UHGV virus genome: UHGV-0183838
From: a virus
Length of the DNA stretch: 29,982 bases
Strand: one strand, 5' to 3'
The stretch's first letter is position 1, and each line of letters starts with the position of its first letter. The notes below the pieces were generated by a model, which was given only the letters and a program-made list of their open reading frames with translations, was not told the DNA's origin and ran no database searches. The translations under genes and the position numbers were made by a program. Positions 153 to 22,112 of the stretch are shown in pieces.

Positions 153-380
153 ATGTCAGCCATCGACTGTATAATTACCGCTGCCGGATTATCATCAAGA
201 ATGGGGCAATGGAAAATGATGTTACCCTGGCAACAGGGGACAATTCTTGATACAAGTATCAAAAATGCGTTGCAGTTTTGTAGCCGAATTATTTTAGTCA
301 CCGGCTATCGTGGTAATGAACTGCACGAACGTTATGCGAACCAGAGCAATATCACTATTATCCACAACCCCAATAATTAA
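153..380 (+). pseudogene. mocA: 5' fragment (75 codons) of a MobA/MocA-like molybdenum-cofactor nucleotidyltransferase gene, apparently truncated at the prophage junction
   Basis: Translation begins MSAIDCIITAAGLSSRMGQW, a nucleotidyltransferase P-loop-like motif; the ORF stops after HNPNN, far short of a full-length enzyme, directly before the AT-rich att/int region. Identification as mocA is from memory of the E. coli protein, not a search. Confidence 0.5.
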
Positions 381-600
381 GCCCAAATTAAAGCTCTTTT
401 ACTCTTTCAAAATCCTTTCAGTTAATTGAGGTTGAGCTATATAACTCATTTAAATACATTTGGTTATGTGGCTTCTTTAATTGAAAATTCTTTCATGTAA
501 CTTTAAATCGATCAGTTTGCTTTCATCAAAAATCTGTACATATGCTTGTACATAATGTACAAAACAGCAGAGGTGTTTTGCGATTTGTACAAGGTGAGTA
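381..600. promoter_or_regulatory. Putative attL-proximal region and int upstream region with four palindromic TGTACA hexamers
   Basis: AT-rich non-coding stretch between the truncated host ORF and int; TGTACA at 535-540, 547-552, 556-561 and 586-591, the last 10 bp before the int ATG. Confidence 0.3.
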
Positions 601-1824
601 ATGGCGCTGTCTGATGCGTGGTTGCGTTCAGTCGTTGGAAAGGAACGTGATAAGGTTTTGGTTAAATCCGATCGTGATGGTCTGTCTGTCAGAGTATCAC
701 CGAAAGGTCGCGTAGTGTTCCAATATCGTTATCAATGGGCAGGGAAAGGTGAGCGTCTTGATATCGGAACTTACCCGGCAACTGGATTAAAAGAGGCCAG
801 AGAAGAAGTTATCCGTCTCCGTGGTGAACTTGAGTCAAACCGTAATCCACGATTGGTCAAGCAGGCTGAAAAACGAAAAGCTACTGAAGCCATGACGGTA
901 GAGTCTGTGATCCGTGCCTGGTATGAAGCATATTGTGTAAAAAATAAAAAAGGTTCTGAACAGATACTCCGCTCGTTTGAGCTGCACCTGTTCTCTAAAA
1001 TCGGGAATATCCCTCACGATGCAGCTACATTGCATGATTGGTTAGAAGTCCTGGAGCCTCTTAGCACTAAGACTCCAGCAATAGCAGACCGATTGCTAAT
1101 TAACGCAAAGCAGGCCCATGTCTGGGCGTATAAGAGAAAGCTCATTGAAACTCGCCCGCTGTCGGATATCTCGGGTAAAGATATGGATATCCGTAAAGGT
1201 CAGAAGAAACGGTTTCTGACACATGATGAAATTAAAATCCTTTATGCTGCGATCGATGGTTCTCGAATGGTTCCTAAATACCGGGCCTTCATTAAGCTAT
1301 TGCTGCATTTTGGCTGCCGTAGTTCAGAGCTAATTACTGCCAGGGTGGACGATTTTGATTTCATTAATAAGGTATGGACTGTACCACCAGAACGACATAA
1401 GACTGGAGAGATAACAGGCGAACCGCTAAAGAGGCCCATTATTGAACCGGTGGAGGAGCTTATAAAGAACGCTATCTCTATGAACAATGGTTCCGATATG
1501 CTTTTTACTAAGGAAGGAAGCAGGGAACCCGTTGGTCGAACATCATTGCAGTCGCTGCCTTACAATTTAATGCAGTACGCATGGAGGCGTTTGGGGTATC
1601 AATTCCCTCATTGGTCTCTTCATGATTTGAGGCGAACAGCACGAACAAACTTTTCTGATCTTACTGCTCCTCATATTGCAGAAATAATGCTCGGCCATAA
1701 ACTGCCAGGGGTTTGGCAGGTTTATGACAAGAGCGATTATCTAGAAGAACAGCGTAAAGCATATCAGGCATGGTGGGAGAGAGTTGAATCGATCGTTACT
1801 TGTACTGGCCCAGAATCTACCTGA
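601..1824 (+). CDS. int: Tyrosine recombinase, phage integrase (P4-like, N-terminal arm-binding domain)
   Basis: 407 aa; C-terminal catalytic-region motifs (HDLRRTARTNF, LGHKLPGVWQVYD); position next to the host junction; ATG at 601 preceded by AAGGTGAG. Confidence 0.9.
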   Translation: MALSDAWLRSVVGKERDKVLVKSDRDGLSVRVSPKGRVVFQYRYQWAGKGERLDIGTYPATGLKEAREEVIRLRGELESNRNPRLVKQAEKRKATEAMTVESVIRAWYEAYCVKNKKGSEQILRSFELHLFSKIGNIPHDAATLHDWLEVLEPLSTKTPAIADRLLINAKQAHVWAYKRKLIETRPLSDISGKDMDIRKGQKKRFLTHDEIKILYAAIDGSRMVPKYRAFIKLLLHFGCRSSELITARVDDFDFINKVWTVPPERHKTGEITGEPLKRPIIEPVEELIKNAISMNNGSDMLFTKEGSREPVGRTSLQSLPYNLMQYAWRRLGYQFPHWSLHDLRRTARTNFSDLTAPHIAEIMLGHKLPGVWQVYDKSDYLEEQRKAYQAWWERVESIVTCTGPEST

Positions 1825-2074
1825 CAGCTTGCGTAGCCCTGACAGTCTGTTTTGAGCGAACAGTGGACATTTTCAATGGCATTCTTGAGTAGGTTACGCT
1901 TAGACCAGAAGTAAGAGGTGATAGAATTATCAACAATACATAAAACATAGGGGATCCTTATTGATTTATTGATCTTGACCAACTTATGTGATGCAGTATG
2001 TCTTTAACTTGTATTACTATTATCTTTATCTTGTTGTTTCTAATAAACTTATCTTATTTCAGAAAGGAGTTTTT

Positions 2075-3775
2075 ATGCATTTAGTCACGAAATCTTATTT
2101 CGATGCCTTTTGCAAAGCATTCGCTGCGCCCTATGAGGAGACCAAAAATTTTGAGGCGTTTGTGAACTATTGTGCTTTTTCAAAATACTCAGGCGACAAA
2201 GTTGAGGTCAGTGATCTTGTGTATGAAGGCCCGGACCCTGGTATTGATGGCGCATTTTTATTTTTAGACGACAGAGCCATTTTTTCAACTGAAGAACTTC
2301 AGGAGATTTTCCAAAACTCACGTCGCGAGTTTCAAGTTTCATTAATATTCACGCAAGCTAAGTCATCGGAGAAGTGGAGCAAACAGGAAATAGACTCTTA
2401 CATTGCGTCAATAAGAGATTATCTTTCACCAGCGCCACAACAACCCCACAGTGAATATCTAGCGGACTTTAAAAAAATGTTCAACTTGATATTTGCTAAT
2501 ATCGGCAGAGTCAAAAATGGCCTTCCAGACTTATACGCATATTTTTTTAGTGCTGCACAAAATACAGAGGCCAGAGAAATAAAAGCTGCATTTGCATCGG
2601 GTGAAAAAAGCTTAAAGTCACTCGGGTTTTCACATGAAACATCCTTCATTATGGCTCACAAAGACATGATTCATGAGCTTTGGCTTGCTGCGGAAGGTCC
2701 AATAGAAGCTAAACTTCCTACAATAGGCTATGCTCCATTCCCAGCGGCCCCTAATATTAATAATGCCTATGTAGCTACAGTCAAAGCTCGTAGTTTTATT
2801 GATTCTATACTTAAAGACAAAAATGGAAACCCTCGAAAAAAATTATTCGAAGAAAATGTTAGAGATTTTCTGGGAATTGATGGTGACGTAAATTCAGAAA
2901 TTGCAGGAACACTAGATACTGATGGAAAAAAAGCAAGATTTGGTTTAATGAATAATGGAGTGACAATAGTTGCATCAAGCGTGAGGCCTGCAGGGCAAGA
3001 AATTTTTATACGAGATTTTCAAATTGTTAATGGATGTCAAACGTCTAATGTTCTTATATCAAAAGACATTCAAGTAGATGAATCAGTTAGTTTAATGATT
3101 AAATTAATTGAAACCGATGAGCCAGCGATCCTTGATGACATTGTACGAGCTACGAATAGACAATCTAAAGTTGAAGATGCACAGTTCATTTCAACGCTAA
3201 AAAAATTAAGGGAATTAGAGCATTATTTTAATGCTAAAGGTGCTATTGAAGGAAATAAAATTTATTTTGAGAGAAGAAAGGGGCAGTATAGTTCAGAAAG
3301 TATAGCTCCAGTACGCATATTTGATATCAGAGAAGTTGCGCGAGCATATGCTGCTATTGTTATGATGAGACCAGATTATTCCAGTCGTTATCCAAATAGG
3401 TTAACTGGTGACTTACTTAATGAGGTTTTCTCTTCCGATGCCCTCGAGGATGATTATTATATATCTTGCTATTGCTTGTATAGGCTAAAGGCTCTTATCT
3501 CAAATAAGAGGTTTGATGGGAAGTATTCAAAATTACGCTGGCATATTCTAACTGCTGCGTCAAAATACTGTGGTAATAATTATAAGGTTTGGGGGTTCAA
3601 AAATAAAAATGAAGCTCTTCATAACTTATTCTCAATGAATGATGGGGAGTGGTTTGAAAAACTTGAGAGTTTAGTAAAAATAGCTATACCAGATCCGGAT
3701 ATTTCTCGAGACTTACTAAAGTCGCAGCCTTTAACATCAACGATTCTCAAAAGTGTTGATAGCGTACCTAAATAA
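2075..3775 (+). CDS. AIPR-like (abortive infection phage resistance family) protein, candidate anti-phage defense cargo
   Basis: 566 aa from ATG 2075 with SD AAAGGAG at 2063-2069 (the track ORF starts upstream at 1988). Contains the motif FQIVNGCQTSNVLI, which I recall as the conserved NGxQT signature of AIPR proteins. The gene is strikingly AT-rich compared with flanking phage genes and sits between int and xis. Confidence 0.6.
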   Translation: MHLVTKSYFDAFCKAFAAPYEETKNFEAFVNYCAFSKYSGDKVEVSDLVYEGPDPGIDGAFLFLDDRAIFSTEELQEIFQNSRREFQVSLIFTQAKSSEKWSKQEIDSYIASIRDYLSPAPQQPHSEYLADFKKMFNLIFANIGRVKNGLPDLYAYFFSAAQNTEAREIKAAFASGEKSLKSLGFSHETSFIMAHKDMIHELWLAAEGPIEAKLPTIGYAPFPAAPNINNAYVATVKARSFIDSILKDKNGNPRKKLFEENVRDFLGIDGDVNSEIAGTLDTDGKKARFGLMNNGVTIVASSVRPAGQEIFIRDFQIVNGCQTSNVLISKDIQVDESVSLMIKLIETDEPAILDDIVRATNRQSKVEDAQFISTLKKLRELEHYFNAKGAIEGNKIYFERRKGQYSSESIAPVRIFDIREVARAYAAIVMMRPDYSSRYPNRLTGDLLNEVFSSDALEDDYYISCYCLYRLKALISNKRFDGKYSKLRWHILTAASKYCGNNYKVWGFKNKNEALHNLFSMNDGEWFEKLESLVKIAIPDPDISRDLLKSQPLTSTILKSVDSVPK

Positions 3776-3782
3776 AGAGAAG

Positions 3783-3801
3783 GGAAGCTTATTGCTTCCC
3801 A
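3783..3801. terminator. Hairpin between convergent AIPR-like gene and xis (candidate bidirectional terminator)
   Basis: Perfect 7-bp inverted repeat GGGAAGC-ttatt-GCTTCCC 8 bp after the AIPR stop, with A/T-rich flanks on both sides. Confidence 0.4.
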
Positions 3802-4013
3802 ATAAATTAACACACTTATAGAACCCTTGACTTAAACTTTTTACTGGTTCTCTCAGATATCGATAATTTTATAGGTTGTATCATAGCGTGATCGTCTTCA
3901 AGAGAAACAACTTAACATTAAATTAGCAACGTTTGCTCTTGGCACAGACTTGACTGTCAGATTAGTTTGGTCTGTGCCATAGATATGTCAGCTCCCATCT
4001 GAGATAATACACG

Positions 4014-4208
4014 TTACTCAATAACTCCAGCAAATCTGTATATCTTGCGTGATGCCCATTTATTTGGGCAGGATTTAATATCAGGATCTGGAAAGTCAGG
4101 CCTGTATTTCTGGCCAGTTCTCCTGTTTACGCTGTTCCAGCGAAGAACAGTCGATACTGAAACGCCACAGAAGTCGGCGACTTGTTTAGTTGTCATTAAG
4201 TTGTTCAT
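4014..4208 (-). CDS. xis: Excisionase / AlpA-like small DNA-binding protein
   Basis: 64 aa with HTH-like segment TTKQVADFCGVSVSTVLRW; located next to int; start overlaps the upstream gene's stop as TAATG. Confidence 0.7.
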   Translation of the reverse strand: MNNLMTTKQVADFCGVSVSTVLRWNSVNRRTGQKYRPDFPDPDIKSCPNKWASRKIYRFAGVIE

Positions 4209-4828
4209 TACTTCACCTCCTGCGGCGGCTCCGGTAGCGGCATCCAGTGGGTTACTTTCGATGCCGGTTCTTCCCCATCGTCAGTAACTGCCCACCATTT
4301 GTTTCTCGACCAATCGTAATACCCTTCGAAGGTATCGCACTCAGTCCAGCCGTAAGGCTTCCCCCAACACCAAACATACTGTTTATCGTTCGGCATTCGC
4401 TCACTACAGCTTATCCAACCATCCGGAGTTACCGGAGAGTTGCCCGACAGCTTGTTCAACTTGTAAGTCTGGCTTACAGGTTCGGCACCATGAAGCATGG
4501 CGGCGCGGCAGGCGTTCCAGCCTTCATCAAAACCGACTATGCCATTATTTAAAGACGGACGAGCATCTGGCACCACCGGCACTGGCTTGGCTATATATAG
4601 CGGCTGAACATACCAGCCCTTTGATAACCAACTGTCAGCAATGTTTTTACTCCTCGTTATTGCCGGAATACCTAAGCCATTTTCTGAATGCAGCCATGCC
4701 ACCGGCTCCTCTTCTAGCGATGCCAGAGCAATTTCATAAGCACGGCGCTCAATATCGTCTCGAACCTCTAGGCTGCTGATTCGTTCTTTGATTTCTTTAA
4801 TCAGTTCTTTATTGGTAAATGTGGTCAT
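4208..4828 (-). CDS. DUF551-like phage protein
   Basis: 206 aa with a Trp-rich C-terminal region (WISCSERMPNDKQYVWCWGKPYGW...WWAV...THWMPLP) typical of DUF551 proteins in lambdoid early-left operons; TAATG overlap with the upstream gene. Confidence 0.65.
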   Translation of the reverse strand: MTTFTNKELIKEIKERISSLEVRDDIERRAYEIALASLEEEPVAWLHSENGLGIPAITRSKNIADSWLSKGWYVQPLYIAKPVPVVPDARPSLNNGIVGFDEGWNACRAAMLHGAEPVSQTYKLNKLSGNSPVTPDGWISCSERMPNDKQYVWCWGKPYGWTECDTFEGYYDWSRNKWWAVTDDGEEPASKVTHWMPLPEPPQEVK

Positions 4829-5190
4829 TATGCTCCAGCCTCCGGTGCTTTTGGCATTACTGCCCAGTGAGTGATATTGACGTTTTCAAGGTCCCCGACC
4901 TGAAATGTCCACTGCCATTCTCCGGTTTCTTTTTGTCCCCAGGTGTACCAGAGAGAACGCCAGCCAATCAGCCAGCCTTCTCCATTAGCATCAAATAACA
5001 GAACACTTTCATTTGCTGGTGGCAGTTCAGCTGACACTGGTATTATTTTGTTTTCCAGTGCCGCACATTTAGCTTCAAGCGCGTCGAATTTACGTACCAG
5101 GTACTCAGCATTTGTTTCGTTCACTTTCAGATCTCGCGGTACACATTTCCCGCGAAGAAACCCTTCCATTTCGAAAACATTCATGCGCAT
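4828..5190 (-). CDS. Hypothetical phage protein with DUF551-like C-terminus
   Basis: 120 aa; C-terminus (GEWQWTFQVGDLENVNITHWAVMP) resembles the neighbouring DUF551-like protein; GGAG 8 nt upstream of the ATG. Confidence 0.55.
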   Translation of the reverse strand: MRMNVFEMEGFLRGKCVPRDLKVNETNAEYLVRKFDALEAKCAALENKIIPVSAELPPANESVLLFDANGEGWLIGWRSLWYTWGQKETGEWQWTFQVGDLENVNITHWAVMPKAPEAGA

Positions 5191-17779: not shown

Positions 17780-18807
<1,028 letters not shown>

Positions 18808-19169
18808 GGTAATATTAAATCGGAACATTTACATCGCGGAATGTAAAATTTAAATAAAAAGGACTCTTCCATGAGCCAAAATTCCTGAAATCTTAAGGGT
18901 AAGATAAAAGGTCTTAATCAGAATGACACGTTTTATTAATAAATAAAGCTATTCTTTCATTGCTGTGTTTTTCTTTACAAAAGTAATCCTTGCTATGGGT
19001 GGTTAATCATGAGTTAATGGTGTTCTGGTTTGTTACAAATTTATCTGAAGCAGTCATTGTTATAATTTTATTATTTGTACCTCTTGAGATTTCCTTGTTG
19101 GTTTTTCTCTCTGATATTTTTTTTCGGACCATTCTGCCCAAGGGCTAATTTCTTCAAAAGGTAATAATT

Positions 19170-19382
19170 ATGTCTAACAAAATGACTGGTTTAGTGAAAT
19201 GGTTTAACCCTGAAAAAGGTTTTGGTTTCATCACGCCGAAAGATGGCAGCAAAGATGTGTTTGTCCATTTCTCAGCAATTCAGAGCAACGATTTCAAAAC
19301 ATTAACTGAGAATCAGGAAGTTGAATTTGGTATTGAGAACGGACCTAAAGGTCCTGCCGCTGTTCATGTAGTGGCGCTTTGA
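19170..19382 (+). CDS. cspI: Cold-shock protein CspI-like
   Basis: 70 aa; [53 protein letters not shown]...; preceded by a long ~360-bp AT-rich leader as is typical for csp genes. Confidence 0.85.
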
Positions 19383-19587
19383 GGTAGACAATATTACAAA
19401 CCATATTCACTTTAGATGCCCGTGTTGTCATGGTTCCCAGTATAGAACATCATCTTTTGATGTTTCTGACATGAATCCTTTCGGGGCAAAATGTATCTTT
19501 TGTAAATCAATGATGATTACATTTGATAATATTTCACAATACTTAAATGTTAGCCATCTGTCGTTAGATTTAAGAAAGTGAAAATGA

Positions 19588-19609
19588 AGGCTCCTTCGGG
19601 AGCTTTTTT
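19588..19609 (+). terminator. Rho-independent terminator
   Basis: AGGCTCC-ttcg-GGAGCTT hairpin followed by TTTTTT. Confidence 0.5.
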
Positions 19610-19652
19610 GCTTAGTGTCTAGTCGATGGATACTCACATATTACGGTAACAT

Positions 19653-19883
19653 ATGAAAAAAATAATAGTTTTTTTTAACTCTGAACCAGCAATGGTAGTG
19701 CCAGTGATGACCGGAGTTAACACCATCATGCGTGAATACCCAAATGGCGAAACAACACACCTCACTGTAATGGCTGCAGGGTTTCCATCTCTGACCGGAG
19801 ATCATAAAGTCATTTATGTAGCAGCGGATCGACATGTAACTTCAGAAGAAATTCTGGAAGCAGCAATGAGACTCTTGAATTGA
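19653..19883 (+). CDS. Hypothetical small protein
   Basis: 76-aa ORF with protein-like composition; no recognisable RBS. Confidence 0.45.
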   Translation: MKKIIVFFNSEPAMVVPVMTGVNTIMREYPNGETTHLTVMAAGFPSLTGDHKVIYVAADRHVTSEEILEAAMRLLN

Positions 19884-20052
19884 TTTGATTCTAATGCATT
19901 GATAATAAATGATAATCATCTTTATCTGTTTGTGTGAAATTTAGACCGTCGTATGTTGATTATTGCGATGTTTCATCTTATCTTTTATACGTTTGCTCCA
20001 TATAATTGACACTACTGTGTACCAGGAAAGTCATAACAGACTAAAAGAGGAA

Positions 20053-20229
20053 ATGATGAACATTGAAGAGTTAAAAACAAAAACAGAAGCAGATATTTCT
20101 GAATATATAACAAAAAAAATCATTGAGCTTAAGAAAAAGACCGGGAAAGAAGTTACCAGTATCCAGTTTACTGCACGGGAAAAAATGACTGGTCTTGAAA
20201 GCTATGATATCAAGATTGATTTAATCTAG
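20053..20229 (+). CDS. gnsB: GnsA/GnsB-family small protein
   Basis: 58 aa from ATG 20053; MMNIEELKTKTEADISEYITKKIIELKKKTGKEVTSIQFTAREKMTGLESYDIKIDLI resembles GnsB; AAGAGGA upstream. Confidence 0.7.
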   Translation: MMNIEELKTKTEADISEYITKKIIELKKKTGKEVTSIQFTAREKMTGLESYDIKIDLI

Positions 20230-20293
20230 TATGTTTATAGTATTAGCATCAATTTCTCATCAGATGCTATTCAACAATACAAATTACCCATAA

Positions 20294-20316
20294 ACCTCGT
20301 TTTTACGGGGTTTTGT
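20294..20316 (+). terminator. Candidate terminator downstream of the GnsB-like gene
   Basis: CCTCG-ttttta-CGGGG hairpin (one G-U pair) followed by TTTTGTT. Confidence 0.35.
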
Positions 20317-20524
20317 TATATTTAAACATTACCGAATAGATATAAATCTCGATTGTCGATGGTATTGGTTGTGTGACAATACCTAGTCTTTCCGGTATGC
20401 CTGAAGAGAATACAAACGACAGATTATGTAAGGGAAACGCGCTGAAACTTTCACTCTTTCATGCTGAGTGATTTGACGTTATATTTTTAGCCGCAAGTGA
20501 AGAGCAAACGAATGGAGCGACAAA

Positions 20525-20731
20525 ATGCATAAAGATCAATACATTGATACCCCCTCCCAGGAGCAGGTTCGTGTAAAAACTATGCTTAATAGCACCATTT
20601 CGATGGGTTACCCGGATGTTGTAATTGCATGTATAGAACATCAAGTATCTCTGGAAGCATTCAGGGCAATTGAGGCCGCGTTAGTAAAGCACGATAAGAA
20701 TACGAAGGATTATTCCCTGTTGGTTGACTGA
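20525..20731 (+). CDS. Hypothetical small protein
   Basis: 68 aa; ATG preceded by GGAG 7 nt upstream. Confidence 0.5.
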
Positions 20732-20981
20732 TCACCATAACTGCTAACCATTCTGACCATTTCACAAGTGACAGAGTCAATATCGTATTCTGTCACTGTC
20801 AGGCTAATACAGTACTGCAATTCAACTACAGCAATGCCTCGTATTTAGGTGAATTTACAATATCGTTCTATTCGGATACCAACTGCATTTCTGAAGATAA
20901 GGCATTTATGGCTCACATATTGGTCCCTCACGCTCGCCAGTTCTGTGCGGGAAGGGAGGGAAGGTAAAGAAACCGGGATGT

Positions 20982-21176
20982 TCATCCATCATCACTCTGG
21001 ATTGATGTATATGCTCTCTTTTCTGACGTTAGTCTCCGACGGCAGGCTTCAATGACCCAGGCTGAGAAATTCCCGGACCCTTTTTGCTCAAGAGCGATGT
21101 TAATTTGTTCAATCATTTGGTTAGGAAAGCGGATGTTGCGGGTTGTTGTTCTGCGGGTTCTGTTCTTCGTTGACAT
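20982..21176 (-). CDS. YlcI/YnfO-family small protein (ribbon-helix-helix-like)
   Basis: 64 aa; TTTRNIRFPNQMIEQINIALEQKGSGNFSAWVIEACRRRL resembles prophage YlcI-type proteins. Confidence 0.6.
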   Translation of the reverse strand: MSTKNRTRRTTTRNIRFPNQMIEQINIALEQKGSGNFSAWVIEACRRRLTSEKRAYTSIQSDDG

Positions 21177-21375
21177 GAGGTTGCCCCGTATTCAGTGTCG
21201 CTGATTTGTATTGTCTGAAGTTGTTTTTACGTTAAGTTGATGCAGATCAATTAATACGATACCTGCGTCATAATTGATTATTTGACGTGGTTTGATGGCG
21301 TAGATGCACGTTGTGACATGTAGATGATAATTATTATCATTTTGCGGGTCCTTTCCGGCGATCCGACAGGTTACG

Positions 21376-21387
21376 GGGCGGCGACCT
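21376..21387. other. cosN cohesive-end site (lambda-type), with flanking cosQ/cosB region about 21240-21560
   Basis: GGGCGGCGACCT at 21376-21387 is the lambda 12-nt cohesive end, in the context ...gacaggttacgGGGCGGCGACCTcgcggtttttcactatttatgaaaattt, about 180 bp upstream of Nu1. Confidence 0.8.
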
Positions 21388-21563
21388 CGCGGTTTTTCAC
21401 TATTTATGAAAATTTTTCAGGGAAAATCGTGTCGGTACTTCTCGAATATAACTTTTTGTTTTTTTTAATATTGCATCCGTAAAGGTCCGACATGAAAGTG
21501 TCCGAAAATGCCTTTTTCTGGCGTTTTCATGTCGGGCCTTGTATTTGATAATGGGTTGTTTTC

Positions 21564-22112
21564 ATGAAGGTTAATAAAAAGAGGCTTGCCGAAATTTTCA
21601 ACGTGGACCCGCGGACGATTGAACGCTGGCAGTCTCAGGGACTCCCTTGCGCCTCCAAAGGTAGTAAGGGCATTGAATCTGTATTTGATACTGCCATGGC
21701 AATTCAGTGGTATGCGCAGAGGGAAACTGATATCGAAAACGAAAAGCTCCGCAAAGAACTGGACGATTTGCGTGCGGCAGCGGAGTCAGATTTACAACCC
21801 GGCACCATTGACTATGAACGCTACCGGCTCACAAAAGCGCAGGCAGATGCGCAGGAACTGAAAAATGCCCGTGAAGACGGAGTAGTGCTGGAAACTGAAC
21901 TGTTTACCTTCATTCTGCAACGTGTGGCACAGGAGATTTCGGGGATACTTGTGCGTGTGCCGTTGACATTACAGCGTAAATATCCGGACATTTCACCATC
22001 ACACCTTGATGTGGTGAAAACTGAAATCGCGAAAGCCTCCAATGTTGCAGCTAAGGCCGGTGAAAACGTGGGCGGGTGGATCGATGATTTCAGACGCGCA
22101 GAAGGCAGCTAA
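21564..22112 (+). CDS. nu1: Terminase small subunit (lambda Nu1-like)
   Basis: 182 aa; [28 protein letters not shown] ... [48 protein letters not shown] closely parallels lambda Nu1. Confidence 0.9.

What the first reader, a model, noticed from the sequence alone, without database searches (positions are those of the whole stretch)
1825..4013. AT-rich single-gene cargo island between int and xis encoding an AIPR-like abortive-infection candidate
A ~2 kb segment of much lower GC than the rest of the prophage sits between int and xis, a position where prophages often carry defense cargo. It holds one 566-aa ORF with a strong SD and a motif (IVNGCQTS) that I recall as the AIPR NGxQT signature. 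It is closed off by a perfect 7-bp hairpin that also faces xis. No partner gene is present, so if it is a defense system it works as a single protein. The N-terminal ~300 residues match no domain I recognise and may be a new sensor or effector module.
Basis: partly seen in the sequence, partly recalled or inferred. Interest (0 to 1): 0.75.

Follow-up and report, generated by a model that had tools for sequence, protein, structure and literature searches.

The report
Prophage-borne AbiU/AIPR anti-phage defence gene
The AT-rich island between the prophage's integrase and excisionase carries one intact gene of the already-described AbiU/AIPR anti-phage defence family, so it is a correct call but an ordinary one.

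Summary
Window 1836-3921 is a low-GC cassette (36.6% vs 45-50% flanks; gene GC3 28%). It lies between a tyrosine integrase (601-1824) and an excisionase (4014-4208, minus strand) and holds one 566-aa gene (2075-3775).

The gene hits Pfam AIPR (E 9e-44). PADLOC's AbiU model covers residues 2-562 (E 4e-111), scoring like the Fels-2 'abiU' protein and sharing motifs with a Lactococcus plasmid protein that scores 590 bits on that model.

No partner gene is conserved in any of the six other genomic contexts examined. The slot after int is a cargo hotspot; four other cargos occupy it in sister prophages. A 90%-identical copy sits beside a P4-type primase.

Most likely it is a single-protein defence with a nuclease effector. 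The family is known and is flagged by RefSeq (AIPR) and by PADLOC's AbiU model. Its mechanism remains unsolved.

The parts
1836..3921 (.). Swappable low-GC cargo cassette in the slot immediately downstream of int
   Evidence: blastn against sister prophages carrying other cargo: homology ends at 1831-1835 and resumes at 3922-3931. GC is 0.366 over 1825-4013.
2064..2069 (+). Shine-Dalgarno AAGGAG, 5 nt before the ATG
   Evidence: Read directly from the sequence. Homology to the copy beside a P4-type primase starts at 2065.
2075..3775 (+). abiU/AIPR-family gene, 566 aa (stop TAA at 3773-3775)
   Evidence: PADLOC AbiU E 3.7e-111, aa 2-562. Pfam AIPR E 9.1e-44. PHROG 1841 E 1.7e-70. The identical RefSeq copy is annotated 'AIPR family protein'.
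2075..2695 (+). N-terminal domain (aa ~1-207), PD-(D/E)xK nuclease-like of the FokI/Mrr type; putative effector
2153..2155 (+). Glu27, conserved acidic residue on the first long helix
   Evidence: E in 95 of 96 diverse relatives.
2234..2251 (+). DPGIDG (aa 54-59), including invariant Asp58
   Evidence: D58 in 96 of 96 and G56 in 80 of 96 relatives. It sits at the start of strand 59-64.
2354..2362 (+). Q94-A-K96, the (D/E/Q)xK element of the putative active site
   Evidence: Q94 in 94 of 96 and K96 in 84 of 96 relatives. It sits at the end of strand 88-96.
2846..3634 (+). Pfam AIPR domain (aa 258-520); aa 258-420 is the best-conserved part of the protein
   Evidence: PF10592, 150.8 bits. Segment 258-420 has mean pairwise identity 0.42 and 26 columns at 90% or more, against 0.28 and 6 columns for the N-terminal domain.
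3023..3046 (+). IVNGCQTS motif (aa 317-324): end of a strand followed by the start of a helix
   Evidence: N319, G320 and Q322 in 96 of 96 relatives, C321 in 95 of 96. Strand 309-319 and helix 321-329.
3635..3772 (+). C-terminal tail (aa 521-566), the most variable part of the family; candidate specificity region (inference only)
   Evidence: Mean pairwise identity 0.16 and no column at 90% or more.
3782..3800 (.). Perfect 7-bp hairpin belonging to the cargo; terminator-like on the minus strand
   Evidence: It is kept through a compensatory stem change in the 90%-identical copy: GGGAAGC/GCTTCCC versus CCGGGAAGT/ACTTCCCGG. Homology to that copy ends at 3810.
601..1824 (+). Tyrosine integrase (context: left border of the slot)
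   Evidence: Pfam Phage_integrase, Arm-DNA-bind_3 and Phage_int_M. PHROG 1.
4014..4208 (-). Excisionase (context: right side of the slot)
   Evidence: PHROG 1553 'excisionase', E 7.7e-36.
3940..3979 (.). 10-bp perfect inverted repeat with a 20-nt loop; part of the conserved backbone downstream of xis, not of the cargo
   Evidence: Fold z = -4.7 on the + strand and -3.05 on the - strand. It lies inside the region conserved in the alternative-cargo prophages.

Best explanation
The island is a horizontally acquired one-gene cassette (SD, ORF and hairpin) encoding a member of the AbiU/AIPR family. This is a single-protein anti-phage defence that the prophage carries in the variable slot just downstream of int, presumably to protect its lysogen from other phages.

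Proposed mechanism:
- The N-terminal PD-(D/E)xK domain (E27, D58, Q94-x-K96) is the effector nuclease.
- The highly conserved AIPR core (NVRD, NNGxT, NGCQT, TNxQ and ERR motifs) plus the helical C-terminal region keeps the nuclease off until infection. It would do this by binding a conserved ligand, a nucleotide or a nucleic acid.
- Once activated, the enzyme cuts nucleic acid. That would produce the delayed phage transcription and reduced plaquing reported for lactococcal AbiU.

What is shown: family membership, domain layout, conservation pattern, stand-alone genomic organisation and hotspot location.
What is inferred: nuclease activity, which half senses and which half acts, the substrate (DNA or RNA), and whether the outcome is abortive or direct immunity.

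Approximate sub-confidences: family identity 0.95; defence role in this host 0.75; nuclease-effector mechanism 0.55.
For: Family membership.
- PADLOC AbiU: E 3.7e-111, aa 2-562, profile 3-535 of 537.
- On the same model, a 589-aa Lactococcus cremoris plasmid protein scores 590 bits, the Fels-2 protein 375 bits and this protein 371 bits.
- Pfam AIPR E 9e-44.
- tblastn to Fels-2: 30% identity over 99% of the query, E 6e-82.

Defence function of the family.
- Lactococcal AbiUi alone confers resistance, delays phage transcription, and reduces efficiency of plaquing by a factor of 10 to 100 (PMC13064643).
- A Vibrio AbiU was among the defences chosen for experimental validation, and a phage anti-defence protein against AbiU ('Surt') was validated (bioRxiv 10.1101/2024.06.14.598830).
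- Phage RE-2010 gp14 is annotated 'prevents superinfection'.

Nuclease effector.
- E27 is kept in 95, D58 in 96, Q94 in 94 and K96 in 84 of 96 relatives.
- These residues sit on the expected helix and strands.
- The literature agrees.

Stand-alone unit.
- Neighbours are entirely different in Pseudomonas, Aeromonas, Kosakonia, Enterobacter and P4-type contexts.
- Nucleotide homology to the P4-type copy covers only 2065-3810.

Hotspot.
- Four other cargos occupy the same int-to-xis slot, including a HEPN_RES_NTD1 plus Mrr_cat pair.

Intact gene.
- Sixty E. coli records (59 of 5426 genomes) hold at least 80% of the locus; the 25 best copies listed are 98.8-100% identical.
Against: - No experiment exists for this proteobacterial 566-aa clade. 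It is only about 24% identical to the lactococcal protein.
- The nuclease assignment rests on one structure-comparison method. Foldseek against the PDB found nothing (best E 0.13).
- Pfam Mrr_cat does not hit the N-terminal half even at E up to 10, nor any of 80 relatives at E up to 1.
- hhalign of the N-terminal profile against one Mrr_cat protein gave probability 0.9%.
- K96 is replaced by E in 8 of 96 relatives.
- The AIPR core is more conserved than the putative effector. That is unusual if it is only a sensor; it could itself be catalytic.
- The simple promoter scan found no sigma-70-like site on the + strand in 1836-2074, so expression in the lysogen is not established.
Confidence: 0.7

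Rival explanations
1. Same protein, different logic. It is a direct, restriction-like enzyme and not an abortive-infection suicide system. In this reading the AIPR core is a ParB/Srx-type nucleotide-binding and DNA-binding switch that recognises phage DNA, perhaps modified or otherwise non-self, and licenses the Mrr/FokI-like nuclease to cut that DNA. The analogy is to GmrSD/BrxU/SspE or MspJI-type type IV enzymes.
For: - Makarova et al. 2013 place AbiU1/AIPR with COG1479 as a ParB-superfamily domain often fused to nucleases and linked to R-M systems (PMC3632139).
- Modification-dependent enzymes MspJI and AspBHI are among the best nuclease-domain matches.
- There is no methyltransferase partner, as expected for a type IV enzyme.
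- The invariant polar residues of the AIPR core (N, Q, T, R) suit nucleotide or nucleic-acid binding.
Against: - Profile-profile hhalign of the AbiU family against DUF262: probability 0.5%, E 0.12.
- The family profile against single BrxU or ParB sequences: probability below 1%.
- No DUF262 or ParBc Pfam hit in 80 relatives.
- The ParB/Srx matches largely vanish in the C-terminal-only model, and Foldseek finds none.
- The order of motifs differs from DUF262.
- Lactococcal AbiU gives only 10- to 100-fold protection with delayed transcription. From my own knowledge, the dairy phages it acts on are not known for hypermodified DNA.
Confidence: 0.2
2. The gene is not a defence gene in this setting. 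It would be a selfish toxin or addiction function, or a nuclease used by the prophage itself (for example in recombination, or against the host), that merely rides in the cargo slot.
For: - A stand-alone nuclease-like protein with no immunity partner.
- It moves as a minimal cassette between prophages, satellites, plasmids and chromosomal islets.
- Nothing has been tested in E. coli.
Against: - The family was discovered and re-validated through phage-resistance phenotypes in two unrelated hosts.
- A phage-encoded inhibitor exists.
- It occupies slots known to hold defence genes in P2 phages and P4 satellites (PMC13586616).
- It is carried stably in 59 complete E. coli genomes, so it is not overtly toxic.
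Confidence: 0.07
3. The gene is an inactive passenger: a silenced or decaying AT-rich gene with no present function.
For: - No sigma-70-like promoter was found upstream by the simple scan.
- AT-rich foreign DNA is often silenced in enterobacteria (general knowledge).
Against: - The ORF is intact at full family length, and every invariant family residue is present.
- It has a strong SD.
- The 25 best E. coli copies listed are 98.8-100% identical and all annotated as AIPR family protein.
- Homologs of 70-76% identity and the same length are spread across Proteobacteria, which indicates purifying selection.
Confidence: 0.03

Closest known systems
AbiU (AbiU1/AbiUi) of Lactococcus lactis (Dai et al. 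2001); PADLOC model PDLC02357
   Same: - Full-length match to the same HMM.
- Same two-part layout: an N-terminal D-G-x-D ... Q-x-K block followed by an AIPR core with NNGxT, NG(C/L)QT and TNxQ motifs.
- The first protein alone is sufficient in Lactococcus, and here the gene stands alone.
   Different: - Only about 24% identity to the lactococcal plasmid protein.
- No AbiU2-like downstream gene. A 341-aa ORF with no PADLOC hit follows the gene on the Lactococcus plasmid pG322.
- Carried by a lambdoid-type prophage of E. coli, not a dairy plasmid.
- The phenotype is untested.
Fels-2 'abiU' (STM2723.1) and AIPR proteins of other P2-like phages (RE-2010 gp14, Klebsiella prophages)
   Same: - Prophage-encoded, single gene, in a variable cargo position.
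- Fels-2: 30% identity over 99% of the query, with an equal AbiU HMM score.
- RE-2010 gp14 is annotated 'prevents superinfection'.
   Different: - In those phages the gene sits between the replication/dinI genes and the portal gene. Here it sits between int and xis of a CPS-53/yfdQRS-type prophage.
- RE-2010 and the Klebsiella proteins are much more divergent in the N-terminal part.
MzaE, the AIPR component of the five-gene MZA system
   Same: Shares the AIPR core: PADLOC MzaE E 6.5e-9 and NCBIfam NF041935 E 8.8e-10, both over residues ~250-405.
   Different: - Scores 37.7 bits against an equivalog cutoff of 1050.
- Only the core matches.
- No Mza partner genes are present.
GmrSD / BrxU / SspE (DUF262 ParB/Srx NTPase fused to a nuclease)
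   Same: - Single-polypeptide defence logic that joins a nuclease to a conserved, possibly nucleotide-binding module.
- Makarova 2013 groups AIPR with COG1479.
   Different: - The nuclease here is PD-(D/E)xK-like and N-terminal. From general knowledge, in GmrSD-type proteins it is a C-terminal DUF1524 HNH-type domain.
- No sequence-profile relationship was detectable.
- The order of motifs differs.
Mrr/FokI-type PD-(D/E)xK nuclease domains (FokI, AF1548, MspJI, AspBHI, Avs4, LlaBIII)
   Same: - A Glu on the first helix, an Asp at the start of a strand, and Q-x-K at the end of a later strand.
   Different: - No Pfam Mrr_cat hit and a negative hhalign.
- The partner domains are unrelated.
Defence cargo hotspots of temperate phages and satellites (P2/P4 hotspots)
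   Same: - A fixed slot bounded by conserved genes, with interchangeable low-GC cargo.
- A 90%-identical copy lies beside a P4-type primase.
- AbiU has been reported in both P2 and P4 hotspots (PMC13586616).
   Different: - This slot is int-proximal in a lambdoid-type prophage whose usual site is next to yjjG at the 5' end of prfC.
- I did not find a paper describing this particular slot.

Membership tests
AbiU (PADLOC PDLC02357) | Full-length match to the family HMM | tested here: met
   E 3.7e-111, 370.9 bits, residues 2-562 on profile positions 3-535 of 537. This is comparable to Fels-2 (374.7 bits). A Lactococcus plasmid protein scores 590.4 bits.
AbiU (PADLOC PDLC02357) | AIPR domain (Pfam PF10592) above the gathering score | tested here: met
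   150.8 bits against a cutoff of 25, residues 258-520.
AbiU (PADLOC PDLC02357) | Family-typical N-terminal domain with conserved E...D...QxK | tested here: met
   [not shown]
AbiU (PADLOC PDLC02357) | Acts as a single gene (AbiUi sufficient, no obligatory partner) | tested here: met
   Tested at the genomic level only. No second gene lies in the cassette. No neighbour is shared across six other contexts. Functional sufficiency cannot be tested here.
AbiU (PADLOC PDLC02357) | Phage-resistance phenotype with delayed phage transcription | not testable with these tools
   Known only for Lactococcus (PMC13064643) and, as plaque-assay protection, for a Vibrio homolog.
MzaE (NCBIfam NF041935, MZA system) | Score above the equivalog cutoff, and presence of MzaA-D partner genes | tested here: not met
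   37.7 bits against a cutoff of 1050, with only residues 255-406 matched. No partner genes are present.
Mrr_cat (Pfam PF04471) | Sequence match to the Mrr catalytic-domain model | tested here: not met
   No hit for residues 1-257 at E up to 10, nor in 80 relatives at E up to 1. hhalign against one Mrr_cat protein gave probability 0.9%. The resemblance is in fold and motif only.
ParB/Srx superfamily (DUF262 / GmrSD_N / ParBc) | Detectable homology of the AIPR core to the ParB/Srx fold, with NGCQT taken as the counterpart of DGQQR | tested here: inconclusive
   [not shown]
HEPN (claimed for the AIPR N-terminus in PMC3506569) | HEPN-family HMM hit or a conserved R-x(4-6)-H motif in the N-terminal domain | tested here: not met
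   [not shown]
Prophage cargo (moron/defence) hotspot | Conserved flanks with interchangeable, compositionally foreign inserts at one position | tested here: met
   Five different cargos lie between the same int end and the same xis-side backbone. GC3 is 0.28 against 0.40-0.51 for neighbours.

The most novel reading that the evidence does not exclude
The AIPR core may be a cryptic ParB/Srx-type nucleotide switch. On recognising phage nucleic acid it would release an N-terminal Mrr/FokI-like nuclease. AbiU would then be a domain-swapped analogue of GmrSD/BrxU/SspE that acts directly on phage DNA, and not a classical suicide system. The hypervariable last ~45 residues would set target specificity. 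This would give a first mechanistic model for a widespread family: 3556 representative clusters at 50% identity match at E up to 0.001.
Probability: 0.3. Interest if true: 0.5.

Novelty: already known. Interest (0 to 1): 0.25.

Why it matters
The finding itself mainly confirms that reading sequence by eye can spot a defence gene. RefSeq labels the identical gene 'AIPR family protein', and PADLOC's AbiU model hits it at E 4e-111.

Residual value lies in three places.

1. AbiU is widespread, yet its mechanism is unsolved. This E. coli ortholog belongs to a very well-conserved 566-aa proteobacterial clade. It offers a tractable model with clear mutational targets: D58 and Q94/K96 in the N-terminal domain, and N319/G320/Q322 in the AIPR core.

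2. The int-proximal slot of this prophage family is a clean cargo hotspot. Three of its other cargos are proteins with no Pfam or PADLOC hit, so they are candidate new defence genes.

3. The cassette shows how a minimal unit (SD, ORF and hairpin) moves between a lambdoid prophage and a locus with a P4-type primase.

Tried and rejected
**Searches that found nothing**
- Pfam on the N-terminal 257 residues at E up to 10: only a chance HisKA_2 hit.
- Pfam on 80 diverse relatives at E up to 1: AIPR only.
- PDB sequence search with the single protein and with a 96-sequence profile: no hits.
- hhalign of the N-terminal profile against an Mrr_cat protein from a sister prophage: probability 0.9%, and the alignment was out of register.
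- hhalign of the 185-420 profile against BrxU or a ParB sequence: probability below 1%.
- Profile-profile hhalign of AbiU against a 40-sequence DUF262 alignment: probability 0.5%.
- Foldseek against the PDB on the full model: best E 0.13.
- Rfam on 1700-4300: only sroE at E 0.67, well below its threshold.
- tRNA scan of the whole window: none.
- Promoter scan: no sigma-70-like site on the + strand between int and the gene.

**Tests that were uninformative**

**Ideas rejected**
- An N-terminal HEPN domain (from PMC3506569).
- MzaE membership.
- Swappable N-terminal effectors across the family. The phage proteins that matched only residues 232-499 by tblastn turned out to have divergent versions of the same N-terminal region when aligned or scored with the AbiU model.
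Full report

Yes.
- Window 1825-4013 is 36.6% GC. The integrase gene is 45.3% and the rest of the window 48.9%.
- The single gene inside has GC3 0.28, against 0.40-0.51 for the five genes downstream and int. Only about 1% of equally long sub-windows are as AT-rich.
- The gene runs 2075-3775 on the + strand and encodes 566 aa. AAGGAG lies 5 nt before the ATG.
- IVNGCQTS is at residues 317-324.
- A perfect 7-bp hairpin lies at 3782-3800, 6 nt after the stop codon.
The ORF at 601-1824 is a tyrosine integrase with an arm-binding domain. The ORF at 4014-4208 on the minus strand matches PHROG 1553 'excisionase' at E 7.7e-36. RefSeq does not annotate that xis in an identical copy.

**2. Exact extent of the island**

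The same prophage arm, 100% identical from window position 367 onward, is present in E. coli strain 26561.
- Sixty records from 59 of 5426 complete E. coli genomes cover at least 80% of window 1300-4700.
- Many more genomes share int and the xis/DUF551/yfdR/yfdQ backbone with something else in between.
- blastn against four such sister prophages shows homology stopping at 1831-1835, about 10 nt past the int stop. It resumes at 3922-3931.
- The swapped cassette is therefore about 1836-3921.
- The 7-bp hairpin belongs to the cargo. A separate 10-bp perfect inverted repeat at 3940-3979 belongs to the conserved backbone beside xis.

**3. What the gene is**

- Pfam AIPR (PF10592) matches residues 258-520 at E 9.1e-44.
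- PADLOC's AbiU model matches residues 2-562 on profile positions 3-535 of 537, at E 3.7e-111.
- PHROG 1841 ('Abi alpha-like abortive infection mechanism') matches residues 37-561.
- NCBIfam gives only a sub-threshold MzaE hit on the AIPR core: 37.7 bits against a cutoff of 1050.
- On the AbiU model, a 589-aa Lactococcus cremoris plasmid protein scores 590 bits, the Fels-2 prophage protein 375 bits and this protein 371 bits.
- By tblastn the Fels-2 protein is 30% identical over 99% of the query. The lactococcal protein is 24% identical over residues 54-476.
- This is a bona fide AbiU-family member. RefSeq already labels it 'AIPR family protein'.

**4. The N-terminal half is not a new module**

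It is nonetheless an integral part of the family.
- An exhaustive search of 1.84 billion representative proteins found 3556 relatives at E up to 0.001 and 475 at E up to 1e-30. Most of the best 150 are 560-680 aa and aligned from residues ~1-20 to ~495.
- In 96 representatives of 23-73% identity, E27 is kept in 95, D58 in 96, Q94 in 94 and K96 in 84.
- The AlphaFold2 model has mean pLDDT 83.8 and pTM 0.44, which suggests two or more domains with uncertain mutual orientation. It places E27 on a long helix, D58 at the start of a strand and Q94-x-K96 at the end of a later strand. This is the classical PD-(D/E)xK arrangement.
- A 2026 review reports that the lactococcal AbiU model superimposes on FokI and resembles a nuclease (PMC13064643). 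A 2024 preprint lists AbiU-1 among single-gene PD-(D/E)XK systems.
- An older statement that AIPR proteins carry an N-terminal HEPN domain (PMC3506569) is not supported for this protein.

**5. The AIPR core**

- Residues 258-420 are the best-conserved part of the protein. Mean pairwise identity is 0.42 with 26 columns at 90% or more, against 0.28 and 6 columns for the N-terminal domain. The last 46 residues fall to 0.16.
- Invariant residues are N261, R263, N273, N294, G295, T297, N319, G320, Q322, N361, E399 and R400.
- This pattern suggests a pocket for a universal ligand or substrate, not a fast-evolving sensor of phage proteins.
- Makarova et al. 2013 group AbiU1/AIPR with COG1479 as a ParB-superfamily domain.
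- I could not confirm the relationship.
  - Profile against single-sequence hhalign was negative, as was profile-profile hhalign against DUF262.
  - Pfam scans of 80 relatives were negative.
- I treat the ParB/Srx idea as open.

**6. Organisation and mobility**

- No neighbouring gene is shared between the contexts I examined:
  - the end of what looks like a Pseudomonas aeruginosa prophage (gene layout only, since the neighbours have no Pfam hits on record);
  - an Aeromonas island with a relaxase and an XhoI-type R-M system;
  - a Kosakonia islet with HTH and TacA-like genes;
  - an Enterobacter mori chromosomal islet;
  - a locus beside a P4-type primase, for a 90%-identical copy;
  - the cargo position of P2-like phages Fels-2, RE-2010 and Klebsiella prophages.
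- Nucleotide homology between the window and the copy beside the P4-type primase covers only 2065-3810. That is the SD, the ORF and the hairpin.
- The hairpin is preserved through a compensatory change: GGGAAGC/GCTTCCC in the window against CCGGGAAGT/ACTTCCCGG in the other copy.
- In both copies an A-run precedes the stem on the coding strand, so the U-rich tail is on the opposite strand. In both contexts the downstream neighbour is a convergent operon.
- I infer that the hairpin mainly stops convergent transcription from entering the gene.

**7. The slot is a cargo hotspot**

In sister prophages inserted next to yjjG, the same int-to-xis position holds other genes:
- a 331-aa protein (PHROG 5157);
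- a 239-aa protein (PHROG 8440);
- a 413-aa protein (PHROG 30399);
- a pair made of a HEPN_RES_NTD1 protein and an Mrr_cat restriction endonuclease.

All four PHROG families involved are of unknown function. The first three proteins have no Pfam or PADLOC hit.

**8. Mechanism**

Shown:
- AbiU family membership;
- a conserved two-part architecture;
- a stand-alone cassette;
- residence in a cargo hotspot.

From the literature:
- Lactococcal AbiUi alone gives a 10- to 100-fold drop in plaquing and delays phage transcription.
- A Vibrio AbiU was among the defences chosen for experimental validation, and a phage anti-defence protein against AbiU ('Surt') was validated.

Inferred:
- The N-terminal PD-(D/E)xK domain is the effector nuclease.
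- The AIPR core and the helical C-terminal region hold it inactive until infection.
- Substrate and outcome (DNA or RNA, abortive or direct) are open.

The main rival is a restriction-like reading, in which an AIPR nucleotide switch licenses cutting of phage DNA.

**9. Verdict**

However, the element is a member of a described family that RefSeq already labels AIPR and that PADLOC's AbiU model detects. Its presence in prophage and satellite cargo slots has been reported. I found no experimental work on this 566-aa proteobacterial clade. Interest is low to moderate, and comes from the unsolved mechanism of AbiU and from the orphan cargos in the same slot.

Noticed in passing
L002:2392-3387 (-), L003:2308-3027 (+), L005:2210-3451 (+), L004:2096-3961 (-): Sister prophages hold other cargo in the same int-to-xis slot. 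Three are single proteins of 331, 239 and 413 aa with no Pfam or PADLOC hit (PHROGs 5157, 8440 and 30399, all 'unknown function'). The fourth is a HEPN_RES_NTD1 plus Mrr_cat pair. Because the slot also holds AbiU, the three orphans are candidate undescribed defence genes and may be more interesting than the finding itself.
   Followed up: partly
window 330-400 (junction at about 367-385): The prophage in this window is inserted inside mocA and truncates MocA after about 75 residues. In the sister copies I examined, the same prophage arm sits at the 5' end of prfC next to yjjG. The two sites look alike (mocA ACTATTATTCACAACCC; prfC GCCATTATTTCTCACCCC), so this appears to be a secondary attachment site. 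None of 5426 complete E. coli genomes has this junction.
   Followed up: partly
window 18807-21564: This is the most AT-rich stretch of the window (GC 0.361 from about 18701), and it has no ORF of 90 aa or more. It lies between lysis-like and terminase-like genes. It contains small ORFs, including a cold-shock-protein-like gene at 19170-19382 and other ORFs of 52-88 aa. It looks like an ordinary cluster of small accessory (moron) genes.
   Followed up: partly
window 3940-3979: A 10-bp perfect inverted repeat with a 20-nt loop lies 35 nt downstream of the xis stop. It is conserved in prophages with different cargo. It folds strongly on both strands (z -4.7 and -3.05) and has no U-tract. Its role is unknown; it could be the terminator of the xis operon or a protein-binding site.
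   Followed up: no
window 4014-4208 (-): The excisionase ORF (PHROG 1553, E 7.7e-36) is not annotated in the identical RefSeq copy. Its ATG overlaps the stop codon of the upstream DUF551 gene at 4208, which suggests translational coupling.
   Followed up: no
window 4208-5190 (-): Two adjacent DUF551 genes (206 and 120 aa) have overlapping start and stop codons, followed by yfdR (HD-domain 5'-deoxynucleotidase) and yfdQ (DUF2303). This is a CPS-53/KplE1-like early region. In sister prophages this block is itself partly replaced, for example by a PAPS-reductase-family gene in L005.
   Followed up: no
L013:4345-5370 (+): On the Lactococcus cremoris plasmid pG322, a 341-aa hypothetical protein follows the AbiU-type gene. 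It has no PADLOC hit. It might correspond to the AbiU2 partner described in the literature, but I did not test this.
   Followed up: no
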